NCBI GenBank assembly: GCA_023131895.1 | Contig: JAGLYZ010000003.1 | Span: 1,394-65,393, forward strand | Direction: 5' to 3' | Length of the DNA stretch: 64,000 nucleotides | Origin: Candidatus Parcubacteria bacterium | Lineage (GTDB): Bacteria; Patescibacteriota; Minisyncoccia; Minisyncoccales; JAGMDC01 | In this document: piece by piece, positions 38,118 through 54,178 of the stretch | How the letters are laid out: every line of letters begins with the position of its first letter | Position numbering within the stretch: position 1 is the first letter of the stretch | Program-made: the position numbers and the translations under genes | Notes under the pieces: generated by a model | Database searches by the model: none | What the model saw: the letters and a program-made list of their open reading frames with translations, nothing else | What the model was told of the DNA's origin: nothing

Positions 38118-40619
38118 TTATTTCTCTGATTCTTCGTTTTCAAGTTTCTCTGGGGTTTTAAACTTGCCTGATTCTAATTCCTCTATCTTGTCTTGGACAT
38201 CCTGATTGCCTGGATTTAACTGAAGAACCTGTCTGAAACTTTGAAGCGCCTTGTCTGTATCTCTTTTAGAAGCATAAGCCACGCCCAGTGAATAATAAGC
38301 ATTGGAATAATTTGGCATCAAAACAACTGATCCTTCAAAAAAAGTAATGGCTCTGTCTGCTTCATTATTATTGTAATAAAGCCGGCCCATTTGAAACAAG
38401 ATCTCCGCATTTTCCGGAAAACTGGCATAGACCGATTCCATTTTTTTAATCGCTTCTTCTAATTCACCGTCTCTTTCATAAAATAATGCCTCCTGAATTA
38501 GCGCGGTTACATAATCGCCTTTCAATTCTAATGCTTTTGTAAATGCCTCTTTCGCTTTATCTGTCTCTCCTTTGTTTAAATAAAGCTTGCCCAGTTCAAT
38601 ATGAAAAGCTGGATTGGTCGGTTCTAATTCAGATGCTTTTTCAAAAGATGTAATTGCCCAGTTCAAAGCGCCTGCGGCCACGCCTTGAATATTCCTGTAA
38701 ATCATAGCTAAAATCTCCCAGTTTGCTACACGATTCTCTGATATTTCCACTGCGCCTTTTATATACTTGCTTTTTAGCTCCCCGGTTTCTGCGATATAAT
38801 CTATATTTCCGCCCTTGCTAAAGGCAAGGGCATATGAAATATACTTTGTAACTTCAGCTTGCGCTTGCTCCCCGTCTGCCGCGACTCTTAATGCTTGGGC
38901 AATATATGTCCTGGAAAGAACAATCCTGTAATTGGCCTCATAAGGATTCAAATCAACTGCTTTTTCCAATTCTGCGACTCTCTGATCGCTTGTAAGCTGG
39001 GATGACTTTATTGCCTGCGCATAAGCAATATCAGCAGAATAAAACCTGTAAGTAAAAAAGTAAATGCTAAACACTGCAACGACAAACACAATAAAAATAA
39101 TATTAAACACCAAACCCATTTCAGGAAATTTCTGAAGAGAAATAACTTTCTCCCTGACTATGCCCTGCTGTTTTAATTTGCTCTCCGAGAAAGAAGATAA
39201 AACAATTATTAAAAGAGCCAATACCAGCCAAAAAGTAAATCCCAAAACAATGTTTTGATAATAGATAAACTGCGCTAACAAAAGCGCTATAAAAGCAAAA
39301 GCCAAAGGAAAGATATAAGACAAGTCATCAGTAAGTATTGGTTTTTTCTCTTTTTTGGCAATCTGCTGTTCCGCAATCTTCAGTTTTGTCTGCACCAGCA
39401 GCCATAAAACGAGCAAAAGCAGAACTATAATACTGAAATAGGCAAGAATGCCTAATATTCCCATAGTGGCTATTATTTCCAGAATATAGTTGCCAGGCCT
39501 GTCAAACCTTATCTGCCAAAACCTGTTTTGATTAAATTCCAATGGTTTGAACTTGGCAAAATCATAATGAAATGTTCCAATTCCTGTGCCAATAAACGCG
39601 GATTTAACACTGCTGGTAACTGCTCCTTTTGTTATTTCAAACCCTGTTCCAGCATCTAATTTATACTCTTGAATGAAATTCGCCGCGCTCAAAGGCACTT
39701 GCGCGTCTTGATTGTTTACTGGTTTGAAAGGCGAACTTATCAAAAACACCATTGCGATAATAATTATTAAAATAGGCAGAATCAAGCGATTCACATCCTG
39801 TTTAAAAATTCTTTTCCATAAAGCAAAACTGATAAAGGAAACCAGTGTAATTAAAATAATAATCCAGACAGGAGTATAATCAATAATAACTAATAATCCC
39901 AAGACGCTGAATAACAGAACAAATAAAGGAATGCCTTTCAGCTTCTTTGGTATATTCACTATTAGCAAACCTGCTGTCATTACTAAAATCACTGTTAAAA
40001 ACATTGCCGCTCCTTCAATAGAATTGCCTATCGGATTAAATGTTTTCTGAATCATAACTACGGGCAGCTTTACGCCTGCCTGAATTATTTTCTGCCATAT
40101 GCCTAATAAGGAAAAATAGCTCGTCAAAACTACCAAAAAAGAAGAACATAAAAGCGTTCTTATTAAACCGCGTACCGACACTATGTTTGCTTTATTGAAT
40201 TGGTTAACAAGCAGGAAATATAAAAGCCCAAAACAGATGAGAACCATTAAGCCATCGCTGAATTTGCCGTAAAACCCGAATATGCTGGACATTGCGTCAA
40301 CTGAAAAGACGACTGACAAGATAGCGAAAACAATAAAACCTAAAATAGGAATATCCAAAATCGTTCTTTTTATGCGGATTTCCTTGTCAATAAATATCAT
40401 TTTCCCCAGCCATCCGATATAGCCGAGCAAAACCAAAACTAATAATAAATACTGCTTGTTAAACTCAAATGCCTCAAAACTAAAAGGCATAAAGAAAACA
40501 GGCAAAAGAAACACGAGCAGATAAATGCTCCACCTCGTAAGACGAGAAAATATATTTGGCATATACTTTTTATCTTGAAAAACCTTATCAGATAATCTTA
40601 TTGGATAATCCTGTATCAA
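38118..40619 (-). CDS. polytopic O-antigen-ligase-like (Wzy_C-type) membrane protein fused to C-terminal TPR repeats
   Basis: 833 aa with 12 or more TM helices, a ...GTGIGTFHYDF... motif, and about 6 C-terminal TPR units. The TTG start is uncertain. Confidence 0.55.
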   Translation of the reverse strand: MIQDYPIRLSDKVFQDKKYMPNIFSRLTRWSIYLLVFLLPVFFMPFSFEAFEFNKQYLLLVLVLLGYIGWLGKMIFIDKEIRIKRTILDIPILGFIVFAILSVVFSVDAMSSIFGFYGKFSDGLMVLICFGLLYFLLVNQFNKANIVSVRGLIRTLLCSSFLVVLTSYFSLLGIWQKIIQAGVKLPVVMIQKTFNPIGNSIEGAAMFLTVILVMTAGLLIVNIPKKLKGIPLFVLLFSVLGLLVIIDYTPVWIIILITLVSFISFALWKRIFKQDVNRLILPILIIIIAMVFLISSPFKPVNNQDAQVPLSAANFIQEYKLDAGTGFEITKGAVTSSVKSAFIGTGIGTFHYDFAKFKPLEFNQNRFWQIRFDRPGNYILEIIATMGILGILAYFSIIVLLLLVLWLLVQTKLKIAEQQIAKKEKKPILTDDLSYIFPLAFAFIALLLAQFIYYQNIVLGFTFWLVLALLIIVLSSFSESKLKQQGIVREKVISLQKFPEMGLVFNIIFIVFVVAVFSIYFFTYRFYSADIAYAQAIKSSQLTSDQRVAELEKAVDLNPYEANYRIVLSRTYIAQALRVAADGEQAQAEVTKYISYALAFSKGGNIDYIAETGELKSKYIKGAVEISENRVANWEILAMIYRNIQGVAAGALNWAITSFEKASELEPTNPAFHIELGKLYLNKGETDKAKEAFTKALELKGDYVTALIQEALFYERDGELEEAIKKMESVYASFPENAEILFQMGRLYYNNNEADRAITFFEGSVVLMPNYSNAYYSLGVAYASKRDTDKALQSFRQVLQLNPGNQDVQDKIEELESGKFKTPEKLENEESEK

Positions 40620-40960: not shown

Positions 40961-43900
40961 TCATACTCCGTCTTCGGAAGGCGTGGTTGTGTCAACTGGA
41001 GGAATATCTGGAACATCTGGAACATCTGGCTCGCTCCCTTCGACTTCAACACACTCGCCGAGTTGCTTTTGCCATTCGCCATTTTCAATCCAGGTACACC
41101 AAACATGGCCAGTAGCTTTATCCCGCATCTCCATTTGCTCAGCCGCCATTGTTTTTGTCTTTAATTTTTGGACCTCCAAAGTACCGTATTCACTGACGAT
41201 TAAGCCGAGATTAGATAGATTATTGATAATTGATAATTGATCATCATTGAGAATATTATCGTTCTCGTCAGTAATAACTGCCAAATCCTGGCCCTGCCAG
41301 CCAACATTAACCAAAGTCATCACCTTGCCGATTTCGCTTTGTACTACTTCACAACTTTCAGGTTCTATATCTTCTCCTTCTTCGTTTTTAATAAAGCTGA
41401 TTTCACAATTAGTCACTGTACCGTCAAACGGCTCAAAGGCCTGACCAATAATCCTGCCAGGGCCAGTGGCTTTCATAGCCACCCCTGGCTCAGAAGAAGA
41501 AGTTAAAAAATCACCGATTTTAATAGGCCCGTTTTCCAGATTAACTTTAACCGGCACTCTACCAACTAAAGCAACCGGAACCTGGAAAGGATAATCTTCG
41601 GTATTACAACCGCTACCTAAAATTAAACCTGGTTTAGTTGAAATTACACCAATTATTGTTTGTTCGTAAGAACTTACTGTTTTTTCAACTAAGTTTGATT
41701 CTTTAATTCTGACTACATCTCCTGGTTCAAGTTCTTTGTTTGAGAAAAATAATTCAGCGACATCAGATTCGCCGCTATGAGCAGTGCCATAATAAATATC
41801 TCCGGCTATATTGCCAGCGCAATCATTACCGTCTGCTCTTACGCATAACGCTCCTACAACCTTTAATTTAGCAGTGGGCGTTGTGTCGCCAATACCAACA
41901 CTGCCTTCAATGATTACTCCATCAGTGGGTGAAGTAGTGGTCATATAGCTAGAGCCGAAAGCAGCATTACCGGCTACGGATAACATTGCTAAGGGCACGG
42001 TTGTGCCAATGCCCAGGTTGCCGCCAAAATAGGCATCTCCTTTGCCAGAGATATTGCCTGCGCTGAACAAACCACCAGAACCGATATTGACGCCGCCGCT
42101 AATCTGGAGCTGGCCCTGAGCGATAATATCATTTCTTACCTGAAGACTGCCAGCTTCCAAAGAATGAGCCATAATTGATGTTGCCTCAATTCCTTTAATA
42201 TCCACCACTACTACTCTGGCTGGGGATGTACATGTTAAAATATAGGCGTATCTTCCTGAGACAGCAATGGAATAACCATAGTTTTCACCCGTATCCAGGA
42301 TGACTGCGCCAATTCGGATTGGGCTAACAGGATTAGAAATATCCACCACTACTACTCTCGCTGGAGATGTCCATGTTAAAACATAGGCATATCTGCCCGA
42401 GACAGCAATGGAATAACTAATGTTTTCACCCGCAGCCAGGGTGACTGCGCCAATTCGGGTTGGAGAGGCAGGATTAGAAATATCCACCACTACTACCATG
42501 GCTGGGGATGTGTATGTTGAAACATAGGCGTATCTTCCAGAGACAGCAATGGAATAACCCCAGTCTTCACCCGCAGCCAGGGTAACTGCGCCAACTCGGG
42601 TTGGAGAGGCAGGATTAGAAATATCCACCACTACTACTCTGGCTGGGGATGTCTCTGTTGAAACATAGGCATATCTTCTCGAGACAGCAATGGAAAGACC
42701 TTCGTCTTCACCCGCAGCCAGGGTGACTGCGCCAACTCGGGTTGGGCTAACAGGATTAGAAATATCCACCACTACTACTCTGGCTGGGGATGTGCCTGTT
42801 GAAACATAGGCATATCTTCCCGAGACAGCAATGGAATAACCATAGTTTTCACCCGCAGCCAGGGTGACTGCGCCAACTCGGGTTGGGCTAACAGGATTAG
42901 AAATATCCACCACTACTACTCTGGCTGGGTTTGTAAATATTGAAACATAGGCGTATCTTCCCGAGACAGCAATGGAATAACCAGTGTTTTCACCCGCAGC
43001 CAGGGTGACTGCGCCAATTCTGGTTGGGCTAACAGGATTAGAAATATCCACCACTACTACCCTGGCTGGGGATGTGTATGTTGAAACATAGGCGTATCTT
43101 CCAGAGACAGCAATGGAATAACCAGTGTTTTCACCCGCAGCCAGGGTGACTGCGCCAACTCGGGTTGGAGAGGCATCAGCATTGGCGATATTTTGAATAT
43201 TCCCCACAACATCCAATTTTGTTCCTGGCGTTGCTGTTCCTATTCCGACATTGCCATTTACAAAAGCAGCTGCATACTCTGCACCTGCTCCTGTGCCAGC
43301 ATCTACATACAGGCCATAGCCAGTTGTTCCTGATGCTGCTGTAATTGTTGAGTATAATCCATAGATTGTATCTGCTCCTGATGCAGTGAAGTAGCCAGCA
43401 ATATTAATGGAAGTTGTGCCAGTATTGGCAACTGAAGAATATATACCATAAGCTGTATGGGACGCATTAGCATTGGTGCCAGAGCGAGAGAGGTTGAGAA
43501 GCTTTGAGGTCCCGCTTGCTCCGCCAGCAGTGGAAGTAGAAGTAATATCTAAACCAGTTCCAGTTATTAAGCCATTAACTGAAAGAGCCATTCCAGTGCC
43601 GGAGGTAATTGAGTCGCCAGTGAGATTTACAATATCACCAGTGCCGGCTTGGGTCACGGTGAGAGCGGTGAGAGTGGCATCTGAATCTGTCTCAATTACA
43701 AATAATCCTTCCCCTGCGGCGCCGGTGCGGTTGCCGGCAATAGAAGTAGCGGCGCCAACAACAGAAAGCCCGTCGGTTGTTTTATTGCCGCGAAGGTCAT
43801 TATCAGAAATAGTGTTGTAATTTGAAGAGCCTGTCTCTTCTATTCCATATTCCTGTGTCTTTGTCCCCTGAGTATCAGTACAACGATTATCGCTAATGAT

Positions 43901-46900
43901 ATTATATGTGGAATCGTGAATTTTTATTCCATCGTCATCATTTAGATAAATACCTGTTGGGTCTTGCCCATTATTTATACAAACATTACCGGAAACAGTA
44001 TTATTATCTGAACTATGAGTAAGCCAAATTCCTTCAAAATTATTTTTATAGCAATTATTATTATTCACTACATTTCCATCAGAATATTCCAAAGCAATTC
44101 CGGCTTTCTGATTTTCATAACAACTGTTGCCAGTAATAGTATTATAATGAGCGCCATCGCTTCCAATACTTTTCTCAAGCAAAATCCCAGCGTCAGCATT
44201 ATTATAGCAAACATTTCCTTCTACTATATTATAATTAGCGCTGCTGTAAAGAGTTATACCATCTGTGCCGTTATTATTGCAGGTATTACCTATAATTTTA
44301 TTATTATCTGCTCCATCAATAAAAATACCTCTACTGCTACAACTATCAATTTCATTATACGAAATAGTGTTAAAACCAGAAGAAACATAAACACCGTACA
44401 CGCCGGTTGTGATCCTATTTTTTATCACAATATTATAATTACCTCCGATTTCAATCCCATTACCAGCGCCAGAATCACAATAGTTATTCTCAATCTTGTT
44501 ATAATTTGATGAACTTAAGGCGATATTTGTCGGTGATCCTGTAATGACATTGTTGCTGAAAACATTATTATCTGATGAATTTAACTCCACTCCGTTGGCT
44601 GAAGGAGTTCTACCTATAATAGTATTGCCAGAGATTATATTTTTAGAGCAGGATGTTACTTTAAGATAATATATGTATTTGTTGCCGCGTATTATGTTAG
44701 AATTTGATGACGTCAAAATCATATACCCTAGATTACCGAAATAATTATTAATGATGGAATTATTCGATGAAGACAATATTCTCATTAAAGCATTAAGTTC
44801 GTTATTCTCAACTAAGCAATTAGATGAAGAATCTAATCCAAGAGTTGCACCGCGATTGAAACTGCAACTTGAAATATTAGATTGCGAAGAAGATTTTAAT
44901 AAAACTCCAAAGTCCTGTAAACTATCTAAGTAATTAGGTGAGGTAAATTTAATTTTTTCAACCGAAACCATACTTCTATTTTCAACATTTATAATGCCAT
45001 CATATAATTGCTTAACATAATTATCATCTGGATATGGTGGATCCCCCGCGGAATAGTTATTTTGAAGATTATCCACCATTGTAAGAATATCATTTGATAT
45101 AGAAGCAATTGTATTGATTTCACTTGTTTCTCCTTCTTCCATAGAATAGATATAAACTTTTTCACCTACATAATATTGAGATGCATCAAGAACTTCTATA
45201 TCCGGCTGACCACTGGAAGCACTAGCCGCAATGCCTGATTTATATACTGCGGCATTTAGAATGGTCGCTCCTTTTGCCGCACCTGTTATCACAACATTAT
45301 TTTTATTAACCACAACTGGTTGTTTCAAATTGTAAGTTCCTTCTAACAAATAAACCAAACCGCCGGCAGAAGGCAAGGCAGTTATCGCCGCATTTATCTG
45401 AACATCATCTGCTGTTCCATCGCAGACATAATCCGCTTTTTCTTTGTTTTGGGAGTCGCTGGCTGCCACGATTTTGGTTGCTGTTGTTCTGTCTGTGTGC
45501 CAGCGAGAATCACCCGCGTCATAAACATAGAGTTGATTTTTGTCAGTGGCAAAATATATTTGGCCTTCAACTGGAGCAGGCGAACTCGGCAGATTAGCGT
45601 AAGTGCCGGAATGAATTACCGGTTCAATAATCTGGTGCTGGTTCATATCCAAATTAGCGCCAGCGAAAATTACTCCTGCGCCAGAAGGAGTTATTGTTAT
45701 GTCTTGATTTGTTCCTCTGGCAGTAAGGTCAATGGCGCCATTGGCATCAACAGCAAGAATTGCTTCGGTGCCTCGTTTTAATTGATAGACACCAGTAGCG
45801 GCAAAAACATTATAAAGGGAAGCCAGAGAAGTAAAAGTAATATTTCCAGAAGAGCCGCAAGCCACTGTTAAATAATTAGAAGCGTCATATCCAACCGTGA
45901 GTTGAGGAGTTGAAGTAGAAGTAATTGTTGTTTGGCCGCCATTGGCAATAATAAAATTGTCTGCGCCGTCTGTCTGAAAGCGAACAACATTGCCTGCACC
46001 TTGCTGATTAACTAATAAACCGTCTGCTGACGAAGTCACAGTAAAAACAGCGGCGCCGGAATAGGTCTGGGCGCCGGTCACAGTAAAATCGCCGCCGACA
46101 ACAATATTGCCGTCTGTATTAACATTGCCGCTTGTGTCTACTGTAAAACTTGCATCGCTGCCTGTTTCGCCTATGGTTAAAGTATTGTTAATAGTTACAG
46201 GCGCTCCAAAATTAGATGTGGCATTAACTGTAAGGGTATCAGTTTTGTTAGTTCCCAAAACAGTATTGTCGGCAACATCCAGATATTGGAAACCGCCGGC
46301 AGAAACACCTAATGAAGTAACAGTGCCTGTTCCGCCAACGCTAACTGTGCCAGAACCAATATAAGAACTTGGAAATGAAGCAATGTTTGATTGGAGATTT
46401 TTAATATTATTTTCTGCTTGAGCTAATTGCGATTTTATTTCTGTTAATGACGCGCTGTCAAGAATTTTTATTTCTTTGGTAATTTCTTTGAGCGGCTCTA
46501 TCTGGGTTATTTTTTGAACCTCTTTTATAATTTCTTTTTGCGGCAGTCCTTCTCTTTCCATTTTTTCAATCTTTGCCTGAAGCTCTACTAAAGCTTGTTC
46601 TAATTCCTTATCTATTTTTTCTTTTTCAACAACAATTTCTTCTTTTTCTTCCGGCCATTCTGGTTCTTCTCCCCAAAGAGACCTGTATGCTTGACTTAAT
46701 TTTTCTTCAACAAAATCATTGGCATTTTGATATTCCTGTTTAAAAGCAATACTAGTATTCATTATTTTCTGACCGATATTTGACGGTGCTTCTTTTATTA
46801 TTTTACTTACAACAAGAGCCTGCTCTCCATACCATCGGATAAATTTCTGAAAGATATTGAGGCTGTATTTAAAGTCATCGTCTGTCTCGCCAACCACTTC

Positions 46901-47290
46901 TGCTAAAAAGGTTTTGGAATTCACAATGGAACCACCGATTATTGTTGTTAATTTATCTAAAGAAATAACTGACCAAATAGCATCTTTACTAAAGACGATA
47001 CCGGTAAAAAGTAAAGAAAAAACCAAAATTCCAGCTAATGCGTATCGGAAAGCATATCGGAATTTTGGTTGTTTAAATGAATTTGAAAACGATATTACTG
47101 GTTTTTTAATCTCTTTGCATTTCTTTGAATTGCTCTTTAAATATTCCTCCAACCATTCTTTTTTAGTTACCCATTTCTTGCCGAATTTAACTGACTTTAA
47201 CTTTCCTTGTCTAGCTCTCAATGACAAATATTCCTGTGAATAATCACAGTATCGGGTTGCTTCTGTAAGAGAAATATAATCCTCATTCAT
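40961..47290 (-). CDS. giant membrane-anchored surface protein: HTH_17-like N-terminus, TM helix, coiled coil, parallel beta-helix repeats, 7 LVIVD-type repeats, tail-fibre-like C-terminus
   Basis: 2109 aa. aa 5-52 ISLTEATRYCDYSQEYLSLRARQGKLKSVKFGKKWVTKKEWLEEYL; TM about aa 83-101; NN..GN..I.. beta-helix rungs about aa 800-1150; repeats ...GRYAYVST.TSPARVVVVDISNP...; GIGTT.P...L.V motifs near the C-terminus. Confidence 0.8.
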   Translation of the reverse strand: MNEDYISLTEATRYCDYSQEYLSLRARQGKLKSVKFGKKWVTKKEWLEEYLKSNSKKCKEIKKPVISFSNSFKQPKFRYAFRYALAGILVFSLLFTGIVFSKDAIWSVISLDKLTTIIGGSIVNSKTFLAEVVGETDDDFKYSLNIFQKFIRWYGEQALVVSKIIKEAPSNIGQKIMNTSIAFKQEYQNANDFVEEKLSQAYRSLWGEEPEWPEEKEEIVVEKEKIDKELEQALVELQAKIEKMEREGLPQKEIIKEVQKITQIEPLKEITKEIKILDSASLTEIKSQLAQAENNIKNLQSNIASFPSSYIGSGTVSVGGTGTVTSLGVSAGGFQYLDVADNTVLGTNKTDTLTVNATSNFGAPVTINNTLTIGETGSDASFTVDTSGNVNTDGNIVVGGDFTVTGAQTYSGAAVFTVTSSADGLLVNQQGAGNVVRFQTDGADNFIIANGGQTTITSTSTPQLTVGYDASNYLTVACGSSGNITFTSLASLYNVFAATGVYQLKRGTEAILAVDANGAIDLTARGTNQDITITPSGAGVIFAGANLDMNQHQIIEPVIHSGTYANLPSSPAPVEGQIYFATDKNQLYVYDAGDSRWHTDRTTATKIVAASDSQNKEKADYVCDGTADDVQINAAITALPSAGGLVYLLEGTYNLKQPVVVNKNNVVITGAAKGATILNAAVYKSGIAASASSGQPDIEVLDASQYYVGEKVYIYSMEEGETSEINTIASISNDILTMVDNLQNNYSAGDPPYPDDNYVKQLYDGIINVENRSMVSVEKIKFTSPNYLDSLQDFGVLLKSSSQSNISSCSFNRGATLGLDSSSNCLVENNELNALMRILSSSNNSIINNYFGNLGYMILTSSNSNIIRGNKYIYYLKVTSCSKNIISGNTIIGRTPSANGVELNSSDNNVFSNNVITGSPTNIALSSSNYNKIENNYCDSGAGNGIEIGGNYNIVIKNRITTGVYGVYVSSGFNTISYNEIDSCSSRGIFIDGADNNKIIGNTCNNNGTDGITLYSSANYNIVEGNVCYNNADAGILLEKSIGSDGAHYNTITGNSCYENQKAGIALEYSDGNVVNNNNCYKNNFEGIWLTHSSDNNTVSGNVCINNGQDPTGIYLNDDDGIKIHDSTYNIISDNRCTDTQGTKTQEYGIEETGSSNYNTISDNDLRGNKTTDGLSVVGAATSIAGNRTGAAGEGLFVIETDSDATLTALTVTQAGTGDIVNLTGDSITSGTGMALSVNGLITGTGLDITSTSTAGGASGTSKLLNLSRSGTNANASHTAYGIYSSVANTGTTSINIAGYFTASGADTIYGLYSTITAASGTTGYGLYVDAGTGAGAEYAAAFVNGNVGIGTATPGTKLDVVGNIQNIANADASPTRVGAVTLAAGENTGYSIAVSGRYAYVSTYTSPARVVVVDISNPVSPTRIGAVTLAAGENTGYSIAVSGRYAYVSIFTNPARVVVVDISNPVSPTRVGAVTLAAGENYGYSIAVSGRYAYVSTGTSPARVVVVDISNPVSPTRVGAVTLAAGEDEGLSIAVSRRYAYVSTETSPARVVVVDISNPASPTRVGAVTLAAGEDWGYSIAVSGRYAYVSTYTSPAMVVVVDISNPASPTRIGAVTLAAGENISYSIAVSGRYAYVLTWTSPARVVVVDISNPVSPIRIGAVILDTGENYGYSIAVSGRYAYILTCTSPARVVVVDIKGIEATSIMAHSLEAGSLQVRNDIIAQGQLQISGGVNIGSGGLFSAGNISGKGDAYFGGNLGIGTTVPLAMLSVAGNAAFGSSYMTTTSPTDGVIIEGSVGIGDTTPTAKLKVVGALCVRADGNDCAGNIAGDIYYGTAHSGESDVAELFFSNKELEPGDVVRIKESNLVEKTVSSYEQTIIGVISTKPGLILGSGCNTEDYPFQVPVALVGRVPVKVNLENGPIKIGDFLTSSSEPGVAMKATGPGRIIGQAFEPFDGTVTNCEISFIKNEEGEDIEPESCEVVQSEIGKVMTLVNVGWQGQDLAVITDENDNILNDDQLSIINNLSNLGLIVSEYGTLEVQKLKTKTMAAEQMEMRDKATGHVWCTWIENGEWQKQLGECVEVEGSEPDVPDVPDIPPVDTTTPSEDGV
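42200..43186 (-). repeat. seven tandem 141-bp (47-codon) near-identical coding repeats
   Basis: The ATCCACCACTACTAC landmark recurs at 42200, 42341, 42482, 42623, 42764, 42905 and 43046. Confidence 0.9.
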
Positions 47291-47398
47291 ATTATTTTAT
47301 TTTCTCATAAGTAAACCTGCTGTCAAATATAAAACTGTGGATAACTATCGGATATTAAATACCCATCAACTCTATTTTTTAATTGTAATTGTACTACA

Positions 47399-48328
47399 TT
47401 ACTCTTTAGTTTCAAACTTTACTCCTTGTTCTCTCAATATTTTGAGTTTTTCTAAAAAATCTCCTAATTTTCTTTCTAATCCTGGATTAAATTCAATCGC
47501 TTTTTCCAAATATTCAATAGTAGCATCAATATCAAGCAATTTATTAAAGGAAAAAATCGCAATTGCCAAATAATAACGGTCATTGTAAGCTATATCTTTA
47601 TCTGCTTCTTCTTTTAATCCTTGAATTATAGCTTCATAATCTTGTTTTTGAGCATATCTTAAGCTATTAAACTTGCTGTGCGGATAACCTGACCCCACTG
47701 CTTTAACGATCCAATTAACTCCTTTTTCTTGATTAGACACAGCAAAATAAAATTGGCCTAATTCCCAGCGAGTACGGTTAAAGTCTTCATTTAAATTTAA
47801 TGCTTTTTGATAAAAAGCAAAAGATTGATCATACTCTTCCTGCATTAATTTAATATCTGCTATTTCTAAATACGGTTCCGCTCTGTTCGGGGTTAATTCT
47901 ATAATTCCCTGAAAAACCTGTTCTGCTTCATTATAATACGTCGAGTCGCTCATACTTAAAAGCCTATATTGAAGCCCTTGTGTAATTCTCCATTTCATTT
48001 CTTGAGGATGTTTTTCTATATTTTTTTCTAATCCATTAATATTAAATTTAACCAATTTTTCAGTCCTTTCTTGCTCTATTTTAGAATATCCTTGGATAAT
48101 AAGATTGGCTGAAATATATCTGATTTCATCTGAAATAAAAGTATTATAATCAAATGTCTTGTTAAACCCTGAAAAAACTTGTTCCAATTCTTTGCCTAAA
48201 ACCATATAATCTATAGCAGTTTTCCCTTGGCGAGCAGCTAAAAATGGCCGTAAAGTGCCGAAATAAACCATGCAACTGATTCCTGCTGCGGTTATTATTA
48301 TTAATAAAATTTTAGAAAATTTATTCAT
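47399..48328 (-). CDS. TPR-repeat protein with N-terminal anchor
   Basis: 309 aa with several A..YY..A/L..P TPR-like units. Confidence 0.6.
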   Translation of the reverse strand: MNKFSKILLIIITAAGISCMVYFGTLRPFLAARQGKTAIDYMVLGKELEQVFSGFNKTFDYNTFISDEIRYISANLIIQGYSKIEQERTEKLVKFNINGLEKNIEKHPQEMKWRITQGLQYRLLSMSDSTYYNEAEQVFQGIIELTPNRAEPYLEIADIKLMQEEYDQSFAFYQKALNLNEDFNRTRWELGQFYFAVSNQEKGVNWIVKAVGSGYPHSKFNSLRYAQKQDYEAIIQGLKEEADKDIAYNDRYYLAIAIFSFNKLLDIDATIEYLEKAIEFNPGLERKLGDFLEKLKILREQGVKFETKE

Positions 48329-49694
48329 ATGTTGATGTAATGTGATAAACTACGCCTAATGTTGCGAAAAACATAATATACGAACTCAAAGTATCAAGCA
48401 TTAATTGATTCTGAAAAAAGTAAGCAAAGAGCAAACCAATAAGACAGGAACAAGATAAAACAATAACTTTATTATCCTTATTATCTTTTATTTTTTTAAA
48501 AAGCTTGAATAATACTGCTCCAAAAATTGAAAGATAAGCCAATAAACCTAAAATTCCTGTATTAACCATTGTTTCTAATGTCTTATTATGCGGTCTGTCA
48601 AACCATTCATTAGAATAAGAAAGAATTTTAGGATTGTAAAACTTAGAAAAAACAATTGAATAATTTTCTGTCCCCCAGCCCAAAATCGGTTTTTCTTTAA
48701 ATCCTTGGAAACCAATCTGCCAGGACTGAAGCCGGCTTTGAAAAGAACTGCCCTGTGTCATATTGCTAAACCGGGCTAACAAAGGCTTTTCTTTTAACCA
48801 GGGCTGGTCTTTATTTAAATATAAAAACCCTAAAAAAGAAAAGAAAATCAATAAAAAGATTAAAATAGCAATCTTACTCCACTTACGAAATTTTTCATTA
48901 CCAGAGAAAAAACTATAAATTCCAATAAAAATTAAAACGCCAAAAATCACTCCTAAAAACGCGCTTCTGCCGCCAGTCAGAATCAAAGTATAGCCGATTA
49001 AAAGAAAACAAAAAAAATAAGACAAACACCAGTAATGATTTTTGAGGATGGACGTATCTAGGTCAGACCTCGACAGTTTTTCTTGTGAACTTGTCCAAAA
49101 AAAGAGGAAAATGCTTAAAAACAAAGGAAAAATTAAATAACCGGCTAAAAGGGCAGAATTGCCAATTGGTCCTGGAACCCGAATCGGCGTCAACCCATAA
49201 TCAATGTATTCTTGAATATGCTTTAATCCTAAAAAACCGAATTTCTGGCCAATACTATAAATGCTTACAAAGGCTGCTGAAATTAAAGCAAATCTCAAAA
49301 ACCACAGCCACTCTATTTTGGTCTTAAAAACAGAAATAATGATAATAAAAAATACTAAAAGATGGAAAAAGCTGAAAAATCCTTCCATCCTCTCCATATT
49401 GCCCCAAAAACTGTGATAAGAATCAACGCTAAAAACAGTAGCAATGCCTAAAACCGCAAAAAATAAAAAAACAGTTAATGTGATTGAATTTAAAGAAGGC
49501 AGAAATCTTTTTTCTGGATAATCCAAAATCAAAAGAATAAGCCATAAAATTAACAATACGCCAATCAAGGATTGGAAAAACACTGCCTTGCCTACTATAA
49601 AAGGAAAAGGAGTAATGCGCAAAATAACCAATGGCGTAAATAAGGCCAAAACTAATCCGCCTTGAATAATTCTTAAAATATAGCTTTGAATCAT
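48321..49694 (-). CDS. O-antigen-ligase-like (Wzy_C-type) polytopic membrane protein
   Basis: 457 aa with about 11 TM helices and a ...GWGTENYSIVF... motif. It overlaps the TPR gene start by 8 nt. Confidence 0.55.
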   Translation of the reverse strand: MIQSYILRIIQGGLVLALFTPLVILRITPFPFIVGKAVFFQSLIGVLLILWLILLILDYPEKRFLPSLNSITLTVFLFFAVLGIATVFSVDSYHSFWGNMERMEGFFSFFHLLVFFIIIISVFKTKIEWLWFLRFALISAAFVSIYSIGQKFGFLGLKHIQEYIDYGLTPIRVPGPIGNSALLAGYLIFPLFLSIFLFFWTSSQEKLSRSDLDTSILKNHYWCLSYFFCFLLIGYTLILTGGRSAFLGVIFGVLIFIGIYSFFSGNEKFRKWSKIAILIFLLIFFSFLGFLYLNKDQPWLKEKPLLARFSNMTQGSSFQSRLQSWQIGFQGFKEKPILGWGTENYSIVFSKFYNPKILSYSNEWFDRPHNKTLETMVNTGILGLLAYLSIFGAVLFKLFKKIKDNKDNKVIVLSCSCLIGLLFAYFFQNQLMLDTLSSYIMFFATLGVVYHITSTYE

Positions 49695-49702: not shown

Positions 49703-50059
49703 TTATGTAATGCTTTCATAATGCTGAATACGGCTTAATTTATGATTCTGGTCTAAGACCACGCAAACAGCATCTATGCGATATTGTCCTTTCCATCTTT
49801 TTATCGCGCTGTAAGCATCAGCGCTTCTTATCAATCTTCTGATTTTCTCTTTATTGATAGTTTCTTCAGGCGAACCAAACCTTTCACTGGTTTTTGTTCT
49901 CACCTCTATAAAAACAAGAACATCATCTTTTTTAGCAATTAAATCAATCTCTGAGTATCTGGTTTTACAGTTTTGTTCTATTATATCATAACCCTTATCT
50001 TCTAAATAATCTCTGGCTATCTCCTCTCCTATTCTGCCAATTTTAATATTATTTTTCAT
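49703..50059 (-). CDS. yraN: YraN-family (UPF0102) endonuclease-like protein
   Basis: 118 aa: GRIGEEIARDYLEDKGYDIIEQN...EIDLIAKKDDVLVFIEVRTK. Confidence 0.8.
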   Translation of the reverse strand: MKNNIKIGRIGEEIARDYLEDKGYDIIEQNCKTRYSEIDLIAKKDDVLVFIEVRTKTSERFGSPEETINKEKIRRLIRSADAYSAIKRWKGQYRIDAVCVVLDQNHKLSRIQHYESIT

Positions 50060-51584
50060 ACATTTTTACTGGCTGCGCGTATTGCAATGCCTCTGCCATA
50101 TGGGAAACTTGTATCTCTAGCGAGCCTTCCAAGTCAGCAATCGTTCTGGCCGCTTTAATCATTTTGTAATAAGAACGGGCGGAAATCTGAAGCATTACTC
50201 CTGCCTGATGAAGTATCTTTTTCACTTCTTTTGATAAGGGACAGAATTTTTTTATCTGATTGTTTTTCATTTCAGAATTAGTATAAATGCCTTGGCCTTG
50301 GAATCTTTGCACCTGAATTTTTCTTGCCTTTGCCACTCTTTTCCTTATATCTATTGATTTTTCCAAGGACTGCTTTTCCTGTGAAAGTTCTTGTATATCA
50401 ACTGGCGGAACTTCTGTAAAAAGGTCAATTCTGTCTAAAATTGGGCCGGATGTCCGCTTCCTATATTTAAAAACTTCTCTGGGACTGCAAATGCAGGCCT
50501 TCTTCGGATGGTTTAAATAACCGCAGGGACAGGGATTGCTGGAAGCAACCAGCATAAATTCAGCAGGATATTTGACTCTTGCTTTGGAGCGGGCGATAGA
50601 AACAATTCCATCTTCCAAAGGCTGCCTCAACGCCTCTAACACAGAACGCGGAAATTCATTAAATTCGTCTAAAAACAGGATTCCGCGATGAGCCAGACTT
50701 ATTTCTCCGGGACTGGGATTGGTTCCGCCGCCGATCAGTCCCACCTGCGAAATAGTGTGATGAGGAGATCTAAACGGACGTATTCTTATCAAAGAGCCTT
50801 GGGCAGGAATATTACCTGTAACAGAATATATTTTTGTCACTTCCAAAGACTCTGGATCCTGAAGAGGCGGTAAAATTCCCGGCAGAGCCCGGGCAAGCAT
50901 TGTCTTGCCAGCCCCAGGACTGCCAACCATAAAGATATTATGGCCTCCTGCAGCAGCAATTTCCACTGCCCTCTTTGCCTGCTCCTGTCCTAAAATTTCT
51001 GACATATCAAAATCAACTCTATTCTCGTCTAATTCAAAGCAAGCAGAGTTATTATATTTTGCCGGCTTTAAAAGTTTTTTGTTAAGTAAATGATCTAAAA
51101 GTTGGGACAAGCTTTCCACAGGATAAACTTTAATTTCTGGGACAATGGCTGCTTCATTGGCTGACGCTTTAGGAATAAAAATCTGCTTAAACCCTGCCTC
51201 TTTGGCAAAAAGAGCTAAAAGCAATGCTCCTTTTGTATGCCTTAAATCCCCGTCTAAAGAAAGCTCGCCAAAGAAAAGGGATTTCTTTGGAACAGAAAAG
51301 CCAATTTCTGCGCAAAGAATACCTACTGCAATAGGCAAATCATAAAATGATCCCTCCTTGGGAACATCAGCAGGAGCCAAATTAACTGTTATTTTTCTTG
51401 CTGGAAAATCAATATTTGAATTTATAATGGCTGTCCTCACTCTTTCCTTACTTTCATCAACTGCCTTGCTCGGCAAGCCGACAATATCAAAACCAGGCAG
51501 TCCTCTGCTTGCTACGTTTATTTCGCAATCAACTGCCATAGTATCCAATCCTATGTTCAAAGCTGACCCTATTTTAATCAACAT
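50049..51584 (-). CDS. comM: YifB/ComM-family Mg-chelatase-like AAA+ ATPase
   Basis: 511 aa: ...GGHNIFMVGSPGAGKTMLARALPGILPPL...GILFLDEFNEF... Confidence 0.85.
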   Translation of the reverse strand: MLIKIGSALNIGLDTMAVDCEINVASRGLPGFDIVGLPSKAVDESKERVRTAIINSNIDFPARKITVNLAPADVPKEGSFYDLPIAVGILCAEIGFSVPKKSLFFGELSLDGDLRHTKGALLLALFAKEAGFKQIFIPKASANEAAIVPEIKVYPVESLSQLLDHLLNKKLLKPAKYNNSACFELDENRVDFDMSEILGQEQAKRAVEIAAAGGHNIFMVGSPGAGKTMLARALPGILPPLQDPESLEVTKIYSVTGNIPAQGSLIRIRPFRSPHHTISQVGLIGGGTNPSPGEISLAHRGILFLDEFNEFPRSVLEALRQPLEDGIVSIARSKARVKYPAEFMLVASSNPCPCGYLNHPKKACICSPREVFKYRKRTSGPILDRIDLFTEVPPVDIQELSQEKQSLEKSIDIRKRVAKARKIQVQRFQGQGIYTNSEMKNNQIKKFCPLSKEVKKILHQAGVMLQISARSYYKMIKAARTIADLEGSLEIQVSHMAEALQYAQPVKMYEK

Positions 51585-52491: not shown

Positions 52492-52609
52492 AATTTGTAT
52501 CTAATATTTAATTGAAAATTAGAAATTGAAAATTAACATCAAATTGATGAAAATTATAAAAATGGGTTAAAATATAATTTTTAGCAAAAGAAGCTGAAGT
52601 TTTTACTGT

Positions 52610-53593
52610 TTACCAAGCCAGAAAAATCCTATTTTCAATAAAGTCGTTTGCGTTTTGATAATCCTGCCTAAAAATAATACCAGTATTAACTATTTTCTGA
52701 CCTACAACAATGGCTTGCTCTTTATACCACTGCGTAAATCTCTGAAAAACACTAAATACATATGTAAGGCTATCTTCTGCATCAGCACCTGCTTCAGCTA
52801 AAAAAGAATGAGTATTTTTACTTGTTAGTAAAATACTTGCTCCTAAATTATAAAAGTAGCTTTTTGTTTCTGCTTCTAATTCATCTGACCTCGCTATTAC
52901 TCCTTTTCTCCATTCATATACTGAGTTATTTATCTGTATTAAAGCTTGATTGAGAAATGGTTTTGAATTTACTATAGAACCGCCTATTATTATTGTTAAT
53001 GTGTTTAAGAAATCATCTGTTTTTTGAGAGATAAACGATATTCCTTTAGAACTGTTTTTAGCAACAAAATTTATAGTGTCTTTGAAATCCTGTATCGGAT
53101 GCAGTCCTGAAAAAAACAAGGATATCTGTTGTTTTTTTGCTGTTATATTTATAGGAATAGAAAATTTAGGAATTGATATGGATGCTTTCACAACACCGAA
53201 CATAGTATCGGAAGCTGTAATAGATAGTTCTGTGCCAGTTTTTATTAAAGTGTCTTTTATTGACCAAAAAATGTCTTTATTAAAATCAAAAACAACCCCT
53301 GTTGTAAGCAAACAAAAAACCAAAACTCCTGCTATTATATATTCTAAAGCATATCGGAGTCTTGGCAGAGATATCTTTTTATCCAATGCTTTTTGGAAAA
53401 TTACTCTTTTTTCTTTATTATTTTTTCTGGAATTAGTTTTTAAATATTCATCCAGCCATTCTTTCTTTGTTACCCAATTCCTGTCAAATTTAACTGCTTT
53501 TAGCTTTCCCTGCCTGGCTCTCAATGACAAATACTCCTGTGAATAATCGCAGTATCGGATCGCTTCTGTAAGAGAGATATAATCCTCATTCAT
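52610..53593 (-). CDS. short paralogue of the giant protein's N-terminal module (HTH_17-like + TM)
   Basis: 327 aa. The first ~55 aa are nearly identical to the giant protein (MNEDYISLTEAIRYCDYSQEYLSLRARQGKLKAVKF...). The C-terminal ...FQRFTQWYKEQAIVV...YQNANDFIE matches giant aa ~150-200. Confidence 0.7.
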   Translation of the reverse strand: MNEDYISLTEAIRYCDYSQEYLSLRARQGKLKAVKFDRNWVTKKEWLDEYLKTNSRKNNKEKRVIFQKALDKKISLPRLRYALEYIIAGVLVFCLLTTGVVFDFNKDIFWSIKDTLIKTGTELSITASDTMFGVVKASISIPKFSIPINITAKKQQISLFFSGLHPIQDFKDTINFVAKNSSKGISFISQKTDDFLNTLTIIIGGSIVNSKPFLNQALIQINNSVYEWRKGVIARSDELEAETKSYFYNLGASILLTSKNTHSFLAEAGADAEDSLTYVFSVFQRFTQWYKEQAIVVGQKIVNTGIIFRQDYQNANDFIENRIFLAW

Positions 53594-53664
53594 ATTGCTT
53601 TATTTTCTCATAATTAAAGTTACTGTCAAATTTAAAACTGTGGATAAATATCGGATATCAAAAT

Positions 53665-53696: not shown

Positions 53697-53715
53697 ATAA
53701 TTAACTAGGATTATC

Positions 53716-54123: not shown

Positions 54124-54178
54124 TGACTAGATTGTTTATTTAAGTTAAGTTGTAATAATATTTACTTATCTCTATAAT

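What the first reader, a model, noticed from the sequence alone, without database searches (positions are those of the whole stretch)
40961..47290. 2109-aa protein joining a cytoplasmic excisionase-type HTH to a huge extracellular beta-helix / LVIVD / tail-fibre-like ectodomain
The first ~55 aa (ISLTEATRYCDYSQEYLSLRARQGKLKSVKFGKKWVTKKEWLEEYL) look like an HTH_17/MerR-excisionase DNA-binding domain. A single TM helix follows at about aa 83-101. Everything after it is of extracellular type: a coiled coil, about 350 aa of NN..GN parallel beta-helix rungs, 7 LVIVD-type repeats, and repeated GIGT..P...L.V motifs with a globular C-terminus as in phage tail fibres. This topology would make it a membrane-tethered DNA-binding protein physically coupled to a host- or particle-contacting adhesin. 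That would allow surface events to be transmitted directly to DNA, or allow DNA or nucleoid tethering (inference).
Basis: partly seen in the sequence, partly recalled or inferred. Interest (0 to 1): 0.65.

Follow-up and report, generated by a model that had tools for sequence, protein, structure and literature searches.

The report
Membrane-anchored surface fibre with cytoplasmic HTH
A Parcubacteria gene encodes a 2,109-residue phage-tailspike-like surface fibre held in the membrane by a short, highly conserved cytoplasmic DNA-binding-type domain, a module shared by thousands of uncharacterised Patescibacteria proteins whose promoters carry conserved operator-like motifs.

Summary
ORF 40961-47290 (-) is real and is NCBI MCK4520789.1. 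A 96%-identical copy exists in an independent assembly.

Residues 1-58 are a divergent excisionase/MerR-type winged helix. The Pfam HTH_17 match is below cut-off. The AF2 model has pLDDT above 90, and its best fold matches are Xis, BldC, RdfS, TraN and RacA. One TM helix (83-101) follows, with charge bias indicating N-in topology.

The ectodomain has a helical stalk, a pectate-lyase-type beta-helix, a 7-repeat LVIVD cassette and a phi29-gp12-type C-terminal auto-chaperone.

The main new result is that the HTH-TM module is generic:
- It heads about 2,000 protein clusters in Patescibacteria, from 83 to 6,890 aa.
- It occurs with unrelated ectodomains, with none, or in 2-3 tandem copies.
- A 327-aa paralogue lies in the window.
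- Related genes usually follow ftsW/rodA.
- Their promoters carry TTATCCACA 9 nt before the -35, and TATC[CG]GATA palindromes.

This argues against ectodomain-specific signalling. It favours a generic membrane-tethered DNA-binding (autoregulatory or tethering) module, or a RodZ-like adaptor. No literature description was found.

The parts
40961..47290 (-). CDS of the 2109-aa protein (NCBI MCK4520789.1, annotated only as 'right-handed parallel beta-helix repeat-containing protein')
47299..47354 (-). Promoter region. It holds the TATCCGATA palindrome (47346-47354), TTATCCACAGTTT (47332-47344), -35 TTGACA (47321-47326) and a TG-extended -10 GAAAAT (47299-47304). The ATG is 9 nt after the -10, so the mRNA is nearly leaderless.
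47117..47290 (-). aa 1-58: cytoplasmic winged helix-turn-helix, a divergent HTH_17/excisionase-MerR type
47045..47116 (-). aa 59-82: basic linker (7 K/R, 1 D/E)
46988..47044 (-). aa 83-101: single transmembrane anchor, 19 uncharged residues, N-in by the positive-inside rule
46670..46978 (-). aa 105-207: helical juxtamembrane ectodomain shared with the 327-aa paralogue and the short family
46391..46669 (-). aa 208-300: charged helical (coiled-coil-like) stalk, conserved in 36 family proteins
45491..46390 (-). aa 301-600: G/T/S/N-rich beta fibre shaft, including an Mtd_N-like segment at aa 562-589 (weak)
43751..45490 (-). aa 601-1180: pectate-lyase-type right-handed parallel beta-helix (Beta_helix, NosD, para_beta_helix repeats)
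43259..43750 (-). aa 1181-1344: G/T/S/A-rich beta-strand repeat region
42191..43258 (-). aa 1345-1700: one GIGT linker motif plus 7 LVIVD repeats (141-bp tandem repeat, GC about 47%). This cassette is absent from the 96%-identical protein P0122.
41804..42190 (-). aa 1701-1829: linker region with two GIGT..P...L.V motifs
40964..41803 (-). aa 1830-2109: phi29 gp12-type (Peptidase G2-like) C-terminal intramolecular chaperone. The predicted autocleavage site is before D1843 (codon 41762-41764), with E1846 invariant.
52610..53593 (-). 327-aa paralogue (MCK4520795.1) consisting only of the HTH-TM-juxtamembrane module. It is 63% identical over aa 1-112.
53602..53657 (-). Duplicated promoter of the paralogue, with the same TATCCGATA and TTATCCACAGTTT elements at the same spacing from the ATG

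Best explanation
The gene encodes a single-pass, N-in/C-out membrane protein.

Outside the cell, about 2,000 residues form a phage-tailspike-like fibre. It is probably trimeric. It consists of a helical stalk, a beta shaft, a depolymerase-type beta-helix, an exchangeable LVIVD propeller cassette, and a phi29-gp12-type C-terminal auto-chaperone. The auto-chaperone would fold the fibre and then cut itself off before D1843.

Inside the cell, the first 58 residues are an excisionase/MerR-type winged helix. It is tied to the membrane by a 24-residue basic linker.

This HTH-TM unit is not specific to this protein. It is a lineage-wide anchor module of Parcubacteria-type Patescibacteria, reused on many ectodomains.

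Most likely (inferred, not shown), the tethered winged helix binds double-stranded DNA. Probable sites are the TATC[CG]GATA and TTATCCACA elements conserved at the promoters of the family's own genes. Binding would give feedback control of these costly surface proteins and hold that chromosomal region at the membrane. This would be independent of what the ectodomain senses.

Sub-claim confidence: architecture and topology about 0.85; tailspike/auto-chaperone nature about 0.75; DNA binding at its own promoters about 0.4.
For: Shown:
- The ORF is present, and the same fusion occurs in an independent assembly.
- The wHTH fold is supported.
- There is one TM helix with N-side charge bias, here and across the family. 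K+R on the N side exceeds the C side in 133 proteins against 29, and 196 of 203 are single-pass.
- The ectodomain carries beta-helix and LVIVD domains.
- The C-terminal profile hits phi29 gp12 exactly at its cleavage site with invariant D/E (E 2.7e-4). The fold search top hits are 3gqh/3suc (E 3e-4). There are phage virion protein homologues.

Generic module:
- 43 of 63 giant relatives share the HTH, and 6 of them have tandem copies.
- 306 short relatives were found.
- 2,054 clusters match at E<=1e-10.
- 80 of 81 genomic ORFs have a TM after the HTH.
- Minimal HTH-TM proteins exist.

DNA-binding inference:
- Invariant and near-invariant residues (S18, Q19, Y21, R25, R27, Q28, K30, K35, G37, R38, N39, W40) fall in helix 2 and the wing.
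- Tandem wHTHs occur, as in TraN.
- Exact TTATCCACA lies within 200 nt upstream in 29 of 76 loci (background 0.018 per 200 nt).
- TATC[CG]GATA lies within 200 nt upstream in 37 of 76 loci (background 0.037 per 200 nt).
- 41 of 42 gene-proximal boxes precede an HTH-family gene.
- Geometry is fixed: TTGAC follows 7-10 nt after the box in 37 of 51 sites.
- In the 64-kb window TATC[CG]GATA occurs only twice, both at the two HTH-TM promoters.
Against: - No binding data exist.
- The HTH is below the curated Pfam and NCBIfam cut-offs, and the family profile finds no solved relative by sequence.
- TTATCCACA is identical to the canonical DnaA box, so DnaA rather than this domain may bind it.
- The two window copies of the motifs come from one duplication, so they count as one event.
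- HTH domains can be protein-binding modules (RodZ). The conserved position after ftsW/rodA fits that as well.
- Trimer formation and autocleavage are inferred from homology only.
- Pfam Peptidase_G2 scores only 14 bits.
- Topology rests on the positive-inside rule, not on a dedicated predictor or experiment.
Confidence: 0.5

Rival explanations
1. RodZ-like adaptor. The cytoplasmic winged helix does not bind DNA. It binds a conserved cytoplasmic envelope or cytoskeletal protein, such as MreB, FtsA, PilM, FtsZ, or the SEDS synthase encoded next door. This would position short and giant family members at a defined site (division plane, pole or host-contact zone).
For: - The overall plan matches RodZ: N-terminal HTH, basic linker, one TM, external domain. 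Short members are 250-360 aa.
- In 53 of 77 related loci the gene directly follows ftsW/rodA on the same strand.
- Extreme conservation of one surface across paralogues (63% mean column identity) suits a single invariant protein partner.
Against: - The fold is excisionase/MerR-type, not the XRE-type HTH of RodZ. There is no DUF4115 or RodZ Pfam hit.
- Basic residues are concentrated on helix 2 and the wing.
- Tandem duplication of the HTH and the conserved operator-like motifs at its own promoters are not explained.
- In this window neither copy is next to rodA, and no mreB was seen among the ORFs scanned.
Confidence: 0.25
2. ToxR/CadC-type transmembrane signalling. Contact of the ectodomain with a host or particle changes the oligomeric state of the protein, or triggers proteolytic release of the HTH. 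The HTH then changes transcription.
For: - It is a bitopic N-in protein with a cytoplasmic wHTH.
- The motifs centred at about -48 and -58 from the inferred start site sit where class I activators bind.
Against: - The same HTH is attached to dozens of unrelated ectodomains, and to no ectodomain at all.
- Paralogues in one genome share an identical recognition helix, so there is no signal specificity.
- The ectodomain ends in a fibre-assembly auto-chaperone typical of structural tailspikes.
- There is no OmpR-type Trans_reg_C domain.
Confidence: 0.1
3. Export or sorting leader. The HTH-like domain plus the hydrophobic segment act as an extended N-terminal targeting signal for very large secreted proteins. 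It may be cleaved off, as with the conserved N-terminal extensions on giant Gram-positive adhesins. The HTH fold would have no DNA role.
For: - The module is always N-terminal, with the motif 18-58 aa from the start.
- It is conserved while the cargo varies.
- The residues after the TM (V-F-S/K) could fit a -3/-1 signal-peptidase site.
- The wing K-x-V-K-x-G-[KR]-x-W resembles the KxYKxGKxW motif. This resemblance comes from my memory, not from a test.
Against: - The hydrophobic stretch is 19 residues (family median 19), which is anchor-like rather than the 7-15 of cleaved signal peptides.
- NCBIfam gave no match to the KxYKxGKxW signal model.
- Stand-alone HTH-TM genes and 200-aa members carry no cargo to export.
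- A well-folded basic wHTH is an unusual signal element.
Confidence: 0.1
4. The conserved TTATCCACA element is simply a DnaA box. On this view the family's genes are cell-cycle (DnaA) regulated, and the motif says nothing about what the tethered HTH binds.
For: - The 9-mer is identical to the canonical DnaA box (established knowledge).
- The genes usually sit beside ftsW/rodA and ligA, which are replication and division functions.
- A third copy in the window precedes an unrelated membrane-protein gene.
Against: - Within 700 kb of related loci, 41 of 42 gene-proximal boxes precede HTH-family genes and about 490 other genes have none.
- The box is usually accompanied by TATC[CG]GATA or CCGATA elements, which are not DnaA boxes.
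- No dnaA or box cluster is present in the window.
Confidence: 0.3
5. Artefact. The HTH-TM and the ectodomain are separate genes joined by misassembly or a sequencing frameshift.
For: All of the best 120 database matches to the N-module are short proteins.
Against: - There is one uninterrupted 6.3-kb frame.
- The same fusion occurs at 96% identity in an independent ENA assembly.
- At least 43 giant relatives from many MAGs share the architecture, as do many genomic ORFs over 1,000 aa.
Confidence: 0.01

Closest known systems
RodZ (bacterial morphogenesis protein)
   Same: It is a bitopic N-in protein with an N-terminal cytoplasmic HTH, a basic juxtamembrane linker, one TM helix and an external domain. 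Short family members are of similar size (250-360 aa). Relatives are encoded next to a SEDS (FtsW/RodA) gene.
   Different: RodZ has an XRE-type five-helix HTH and a DUF4115 C-domain, and it binds MreB. Here the domain is an excisionase/MerR-type winged helix, there are no RodZ Pfam hits, the ectodomains are variable and often giant, and operator-like motifs sit at its own promoters.
ToxR / TcpP / CadC membrane-bound transcription activators
   Same: A cytoplasmic winged-helix DNA-binding domain is tethered by a single TM helix to an extracytoplasmic domain. They bind DNA at the membrane.
   Different: Those use OmpR/PhoB-type wHTH (Trans_reg_C) and small dedicated periplasmic sensor domains. 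Here one invariant HTH is combined with dozens of structural ectodomains or with none.
phi29 gp12 pre-neck appendage (tailspike) and related phage fibres with C-terminal intramolecular chaperones
   Same: It has a right-handed beta-helix followed by a C-terminal auto-chaperone, with a conserved Asp/Glu at the self-cleavage site. Sequence-profile and fold matches both hit the gp12 C-terminal fragment. There are homologues in jumbo-phage virion proteins.
   Different: gp12 is attached to a virion by its N-terminus. This protein is anchored in a cell membrane by an HTH-TM module, is 2.5 times longer, and carries extra modules (stalk, LVIVD propeller, GIGT linkers). It lies among housekeeping genes, not in a prophage.
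Small MerR-like/excisionase wHTH proteins (Xis, RdfS, BldC, TraN, RacA)
   Same: The fold is the same (best structural matches). TraN shows two tandem wHTHs binding dsDNA. RacA tethers chromosomal DNA to the cell envelope, via DivIVA.
   Different: All of these are soluble. None is fused to a TM helix or an ectodomain. Sequence identity is only 14-24%.
Giant Gram-positive surface adhesins with conserved N-terminal export motifs (KxYKxGKxW, YSIRK)
   Same: The concept is the same: a short conserved N-terminal module on very large, rapidly varying surface proteins.
   Different: There is no detectable homology (NCBIfam scan negative). Those motifs are parts of cleaved signal peptides, not folded cytoplasmic domains.

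Membership tests
HTH_17 / excisionase-MerR winged helix (Pfam PF12728, TIGR01764) | Significant full-length match to the family profile | tested here: inconclusive
   The match covers profile positions 1-50 of 51. It scores 16.6 bits in the whole protein and 24.4 bits (E 3.5e-5) for the domain alone, against a cut-off of 27. 30 of 31 relatives match, with a best E of 1.4e-5. TIGR01764 scores 13.2 bits against 28.8.
HTH_17 / excisionase-MerR winged helix (Pfam PF12728, TIGR01764) | beta-alpha-alpha-beta-beta(-alpha) winged-helix fold superposable on Xis/BldC | tested here: met
   AF2 pLDDT is 91-95 for aa 1-58. The top 10 Foldseek PDB hits are Xis 4j2n, BldC 6ama/6amk, RdfS 8dgl and TraN 4p0z (prob 0.85-0.99, rmsd 1.5-3.2 A). 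RacA 5i44 also matches.
HTH_17 / excisionase-MerR winged helix (Pfam PF12728, TIGR01764) | Binds double-stranded DNA | not testable with these tools
   The evidence is only indirect: conserved basic helix 2 and wing, and operator-like motifs at its own promoters.
RodZ | XRE-type N-terminal HTH and C-terminal DUF4115 domain | tested here: not met
   There are no such Pfam hits in this protein, in the paralogue, or in the precomputed domains of 120 relatives.
RodZ | Single TM, N-in topology | tested here: met
RodZ | HTH binds MreB | not testable with these tools
   No mreB was found among the window ORFs scanned. The rest of the genome was not available.
ToxR/CadC-type membrane-bound activators | OmpR/PhoB-type wHTH (Trans_reg_C) | tested here: not met
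   There is no PF00486 hit. The fold matches are excisionase/MerR type.
ToxR/CadC-type membrane-bound activators | Dedicated extracytoplasmic sensor domain controlling the HTH | tested here: not met
   The ectodomain is interchangeable or absent across the family.
phi29 gp12-type tailspike with Peptidase G2 auto-chaperone | Right-handed parallel beta-helix body | tested here: met
   Beta_helix scores 99.5 bits, NosD 97.2 bits, and para_beta_helix repeats give 7 stretches.
phi29 gp12-type tailspike with Peptidase G2 auto-chaperone | C-terminal domain homologous to gp12 residues 692-854 | tested here: met
   The profile of 14 relatives against PDB hits 6qz9_A (E 2.7e-4) and 3gqh_A (E 2.3e-3). 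The Foldseek top hits are 3gqh_A and 3suc (E 3e-4, prob 1.0). Pfam PF11962 scores only 14.4 bits against a cut-off of 25.
phi29 gp12-type tailspike with Peptidase G2 auto-chaperone | Conserved Asp and Glu at the autocleavage site | tested here: met
   D1843 and E1846 (DVAE) are invariant in the 14-sequence alignment. They align with the first residues (DFAE) of the cleaved gp12 fragment 3gqh.
phi29 gp12-type tailspike with Peptidase G2 auto-chaperone | Trimerisation and self-cleavage | not testable with these tools
   This needs expression of the ectodomain.
LVIVD repeat beta-propeller (PF08309) | Tandem LVIVD repeats above the family threshold | tested here: met
   It scores 140.7 bits against a cut-off of 20.2. 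There are 7 repeats of 47 aa.

The most novel reading that the evidence does not exclude
Parcubacteria-type Patescibacteria possess a phylum-specific, membrane-tethered winged-helix module. It binds a dedicated operator (TATC[CG]GATA, with or without TTATCCACA) at the promoters of its own gene family. This would physically couple the chromosome to the envelope. Because the domain is the first part of the nascent chain, it could give cis-acting feedback control on the synthesis of giant tailspike-like surface fibres. That would be a previously undescribed way of linking surface-protein production, DNA and the division/elongation locus (ftsW/rodA) in ultra-small cells.
Probability: 0.35. Interest if true: 0.8.

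Novelty: new variant of a known kind. Interest (0 to 1): 0.68.

Why it matters
Patescibacteria are largely uncultivated episymbionts. Their giant surface proteins are prime candidates for host attachment and attack, yet how these proteins are anchored and controlled is unknown.

This work shows that thousands of these proteins share one cytoplasmic DNA-binding-type anchor, a conserved promoter architecture, and a conserved genomic position beside ftsW/rodA. That turns a single odd gene into a defined, testable family.

- A 60-residue domain and a 25-bp duplex are enough for a decisive binding test.
- The gp12-type auto-chaperone predicts a trimeric, self-processing fibre with a depolymerase-like beta-helix, which can be expressed and assayed.
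- The exchangeable LVIVD cassette between near-identical strains points to modular, rapid diversification of the host-facing end.

Tried and rejected
- A profile of the HTH against PDB sequences gave only spurious ankyrin hits at E 0.25. The fold search was needed instead.
- The look-up of encoding contigs for the protein itself returned 'not on record'.
- DprA/ComM adjacency as a conserved context was not seen in related loci, so it was dropped as a functional link.
- I considered that the motif marks oriC. The cumulative GC-skew minimum is near 52-54 kb. However, no dnaA or box cluster is there, and the intergenic spaces are 55-122 nt. The first-locus-tag position of P0154 reflects only where the record was cut, because its locus runs off the start of the record.
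- An unbiased reverse test scanned metagenomes for CGATAGTTATCCACA. The hits came from organisms of every GC content, and only 2 of 120 had an HTH gene downstream. The test was uninformative.
- For the KxYKxGKxW signal-peptide resemblance, there was no NCBIfam hit.
- The N-module has no match in 50,697 phage records, so it is not phage-derived.
- Rfam gave nothing for the structured element upstream of relatives, at gathering threshold or at E<=1.
- Six literature searches and two papers checked gave no description of this module.
- The exact TTATCCACA at 14710 lies inside a small XRE-type ORF and is coincidental.

Full report

The window holds one uninterrupted ORF at 40961..47290 on the minus strand, 2109 aa with an ATG start. 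It is identical to NCBI MCK4520789.1 from a Candidatus Parcubacteria MAG on a 69,946-bp contig. NCBI names it only 'right-handed parallel beta-helix repeat-containing protein'.

A 96%-identical protein (P0122, 1669 aa) comes from an independent ENA assembly. It has the same N-terminus and the same C-terminus. The fusion is therefore not an assembly artefact.

An in-frame stop lies two codons upstream of the ATG. The next Met is residue 177, beyond the membrane segment. Any exported product must therefore start with the HTH.

**2. The N-terminal module**

*Sequence evidence.* Pfam HTH_17 aligns over its whole length (profile 1-50 of 51, aa 5-54). The score is 16.6 bits in the full protein and 24.4 bits (E 3.5e-5) for the isolated domain, below the curated 27 bits. 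30 of 31 relatives give the same hit. TIGR01764 'excise' is also sub-threshold. A family profile finds no solved structure by sequence.

*Fold evidence.* An AF2 model of aa 1-207, built from 63 sequences, has pLDDT 91-95 for aa 1-58. The topology is b(5-7)-a(8-14)-a(19-27)-b(33-36)-b(39-43)-a(44-58). Its best PDB fold matches are:
- mycobacteriophage Xis,
- BldC,
- the RdfS excisionase,
- the dsDNA-binding TraN,
- and, lower in the list, the chromosome anchor RacA.

These matches have probability 0.95-0.99, target TM 0.68-0.79 and rmsd 1.5-2.6 A. The fold claim stands. Membership of HTH_17 by curated score is formally inconclusive.

*Topology.* Only one strongly hydrophobic segment exists, at aa 83-101 with Kyte-Doolittle 2.1. 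It has 9 K/R on the N side and 3 on the C side. Its 19 uncharged residues look like an anchor rather than a cleaved signal peptide. Topology is therefore N-in/C-out by the positive-inside rule, which is an inference.

**3. The ectodomain**

From the membrane outward:
- aa 105-207 are helical and are shared with short relatives.
- aa 208-300 form a charged helical stalk, conserved in 36 family proteins.
- aa 301-600 form a G/T/S/N-rich beta shaft with a weak Mtd_N-like segment.
- aa 601-1180 form a right-handed beta-helix: Beta_helix 1.9e-28, NosD 1.2e-27, seven para_beta_helix repeats.
- aa 1345-1700 contain seven 47-aa LVIVD repeats (8.4e-42). They are encoded by a 141-bp x 6.9 tandem repeat at 42197-43168 with 90% identity. 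The GC content there is 47%, against about 33% elsewhere.
- Three G.GIG[TD]..P...L.V motifs sit at aa 1346, 1757 and 1796.

P0122 lacks exactly the LVIVD block, and the breakpoints fall at such motifs. The propeller is therefore an exchangeable cassette.

The last 280 residues are conserved in 41 giant relatives. A 14-sequence profile of this region hits phi29 pre-neck appendage protein gp12 (6qz9 at E 2.7e-4; 3gqh at E 2.3e-3). The hit falls exactly where the self-cleaved C-terminal fragment begins. D1843 and E1846 (DVAE) are invariant.

The AF2 model of this region (pLDDT 71) has 3gqh_A and 3suc as its top fold matches (E 3e-4, probability 1.0). Pfam Peptidase_G2 is weak (E 0.024). tblastn finds 40%-identical segments in virion and tail proteins of PA5oct-like jumbo phages.

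By homology (inference), the ectodomain is a trimeric, self-processing tailspike-like fibre. The 'globular tail-fibre C-terminus' is an intramolecular chaperone, not a receptor-binding head.

**4. The HTH-TM module is generic**

A 327-aa paralogue lies at 52610..53593 on the minus strand (MCK4520795.1). It consists only of HTH, TM and juxtamembrane region. It is 63% identical over aa 1-112, with an identical recognition-helix stretch (YSQEYLSLRARQGKLK).

Searching aa 1-207 gives 306 hits. The best 120 are all 126-361 aa proteins from Parcubacteria, Nealsonbacteria, Gribaldobacteria and similar lineages.

Searching the full protein gives 63 giants of 1.3-3.7 kaa. 43 of them start with the same domain (consensus YISLQEATKYCDYSQEYLSLRARQGKLKAVKFGRNWVTKKEWLEEY), although their ectodomains differ. 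Six carry two tandem copies.

An HMM of the domain finds 2,054 clusters (at 50% identity) at E<=1e-10. Lengths run from 83 to 6,890 aa, with one to three copies.

A single peptide pattern finds 451 loci in species-representative genomes, nearly all labelled Patescibacteria. In the 80 loci fetched, the motif is always 18-58 aa from the start, and 80 of 81 ORFs have a hydrophobic segment after it.

Family-wide figures:
- 196 of 203 proteins are single-pass.
- K+R on the N side exceeds the C side in 133 proteins against 29.
- Four loci have a 125-134-aa HTH-TM-only gene directly upstream of a larger family gene.
- The module has no match in phage genomes.

**5. Context and cis-elements**

All neighbours in the window are on the minus strand. 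In order they are TsaE, the short paralogue, DprA, ComM/YifB, YraN, a Wzy_C protein, a TPR protein, the giant gene, a TPR+Wzy_C protein, a 5'-3' exonuclease and a histidine kinase. These are housekeeping genes, not a prophage.

In a related genome (L003) the order is TsaE, short gene, PDDEXK, 5'-3' exonuclease, kinase. The block from DprA to the Wzy_C-TPR gene therefore sits between conserved flanks in this window.

Across 77 related loci the family gene directly follows ftsW/rodA in 53. The family gene ranges from about 120 to over 2,000 aa, with many ORFs cut short by the end of the fetched locus. Upstream lie ligA at -2 in 41 loci, and then four minor-pilin-like genes.

The two window paralogues share about 70 nt of upstream DNA. 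This stretch contains:
- TATCCGATA,
- TTATCCACAGTTT,
- a -35 TTGACA,
- and a TG-extended -10 GAAAAT that ends 9 nt before the ATG.

The mRNA is therefore nearly leaderless.

These elements recur in divergent genomes:
- Exact TTATCCACA lies within 200 nt upstream in 29 of 76 loci, against a background of 0.018 per 200 nt.
- TATC[CG]GATA lies within 200 nt upstream in 37 of 76 loci, against a background of 0.037 per 200 nt.
- The top enriched 7-mers are pieces of these two motifs.
- Of 42 boxes lying within 250 nt upstream of a gene start, 41 precede HTH-family genes.
- 46 of 47 boxes in the gene's orientation lie 12-594 nt upstream of a family gene.
- TTGAC follows 7-10 nt after the box in 37 of 51 cases, and a -10-like hexamer follows in 36 of 39.

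In the 64-kb window TATC[CG]GATA occurs only twice, at the two family promoters. The chance expectation is 0.28. These two copies stem from one duplication and so count as one event.

**6. Mechanism**

*Shown.* The results establish four things: a bitopic protein whose folded N-terminal wHTH lies on the side with more positive charge, a tailspike-like ectodomain, a generic anchor module, and conserved promoter elements.

*Inferred.* The wHTH is cytoplasmic and binds DNA, most plausibly the palindromic TATC-S-GATA elements and perhaps the adjacent TTATCCACA. This would give autoregulation and hold the locus at the membrane.

The points that fit DNA binding are:
- invariant residues concentrate on helix 2 and the wing;
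- tandem wHTHs occur, as in TraN;
- trimeric fibres would cluster three HTHs.

The points against are:
- TTATCCACA is the textbook DnaA box;
- RodZ shows that a tethered HTH can be a protein adaptor, and the ftsW/rodA synteny fits that;
- nothing has been measured.

The ectodomain is interchangeable or absent, and paralogues share one recognition helix.

**7. Comparison and novelty**

The protein works like a hybrid of a RodZ/ToxR-style tethered HTH and a phi29-gp12-style tailspike. It is a member of neither the RodZ nor the ToxR family, because their defining domains were tested and are absent.

Its beta-helix, LVIVD and gp12-type chaperone domains are ordinary members of known families. The HTH-TM module as a family-wide anchor appears undescribed, as do its promoter architecture and its synteny. 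This rests on six literature searches and two papers checked. The library does not cover all journals.

I rate it a new variant of a known kind, with interest 0.68.

Noticed in passing
window 52610-53593 (-) and 53602-57: A 327-aa paralogue consists only of the HTH-TM-juxtamembrane module. About 70 nt of promoter was duplicated together with the 5' coding part, and the TATCCGATA/TTATCCACAGTTT spacing from the ATG is the same.
   Followed up: yes
window 42191-43258 (-): The LVIVD array is a cassette: a 141-bp x 6.9 tandem repeat with GC 47% against about 33% elsewhere. It is missing from the 96%-identical protein P0122 of a sister strain. The breakpoints fall at GN[VL]GIGT..P..L.V linker motifs, which suggests recombination at these linkers.
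   Followed up: partly
loci L005-L084 (related Patescibacteria genomes): There is a conserved gene order: four minor-pilin-like genes (N_methyl, PilX_N, ComGE-like), then LigA, then FtsW/RodA, then the HTH-TM gene. FtsW/RodA is directly upstream in 53 of 77 loci. The size of the HTH-TM gene at that position varies from about 120 to over 2,000 aa.
   Followed up: partly
L011, L012, L024, L027, L050, L052, L053, L062, L069, L071, L079, L081 (about 100-200 nt upstream of the HTH gene): An 80-110-nt element lies between rodA and the HTH-TM gene. It has the form A-tract, GAAGGCNCC ... GGNGCCTTC, T-tract, then TTTTACT...TTGTCAAG. Five of six closing-stem pairs show compensatory changes. Rfam gives no match, even at E<=1. 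It could be an unusual terminator, a 5'UTR element or a small RNA.
   Followed up: partly
window 8959-8971 (-): A third exact TTATCCACAGTTT lies 66 nt upstream of ORF 8318-8893. That ORF encodes a 191-aa protein with an N-terminal TM, a Cys-rich region and no Pfam hit. It is followed by a 608-aa ORF, also without a Pfam hit. The motif's regulon may therefore include other envelope proteins.
   Followed up: partly
window 38118-40619 (-), 47399-48328 (-), 48321-49694 (-): The giant gene is flanked on both sides by O-antigen-ligase-like (Wzy_C) and TPR proteins. One is an 833-aa Wzy_C+TPR fusion. Wzy_C enzymes include protein O-oligosaccharyltransferases, so the fibre may be glycosylated. This is inference only.
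   Followed up: no
window 49703-52491 (-): DprA, ComM/YifB (Mg-chelatase-like) and YraN (UPF0102) form a DNA-uptake/recombination cluster between the two HTH-TM paralogues. This adjacency was not conserved in the related loci examined.
   Followed up: partly
window about 52000-54200: The cumulative GC skew reaches its minimum here. Gene orientation switches from minus to plus at about 54.1 kb, between TsaE and a T2SSE ATPase. No dnaA or DnaA-box cluster is present, so an origin assignment is not supported.
   Followed up: partly
L057, L061, L070, L076: Stand-alone 125-134-aa genes encode only the HTH plus a TM helix (MDYISLKEATKYC.YSQDYLKLRARQGK...). They sit immediately upstream of a larger HTH-TM gene, so the module functions without any ectodomain.
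   Followed up: partly
window 25176-25250 and 25625-25697 (-): Two tRNA-His(GTG) genes lie next to the histidyl-tRNA synthetase gene (23913-25169). The tRNA scan places the anticodon at a different position in each (36 against 34).
   Followed up: no
aa 30-41 of the protein (window about 47168-47203): The wing sequence K-x-V-K-x-G-[KR]-x-W resembles the KxYKxGKxW motif of Firmicutes giant-adhesin signal peptides, which I recall from memory. The NCBIfam scan gave no match to that model, so the resemblance is unsupported.
   Followed up: partly
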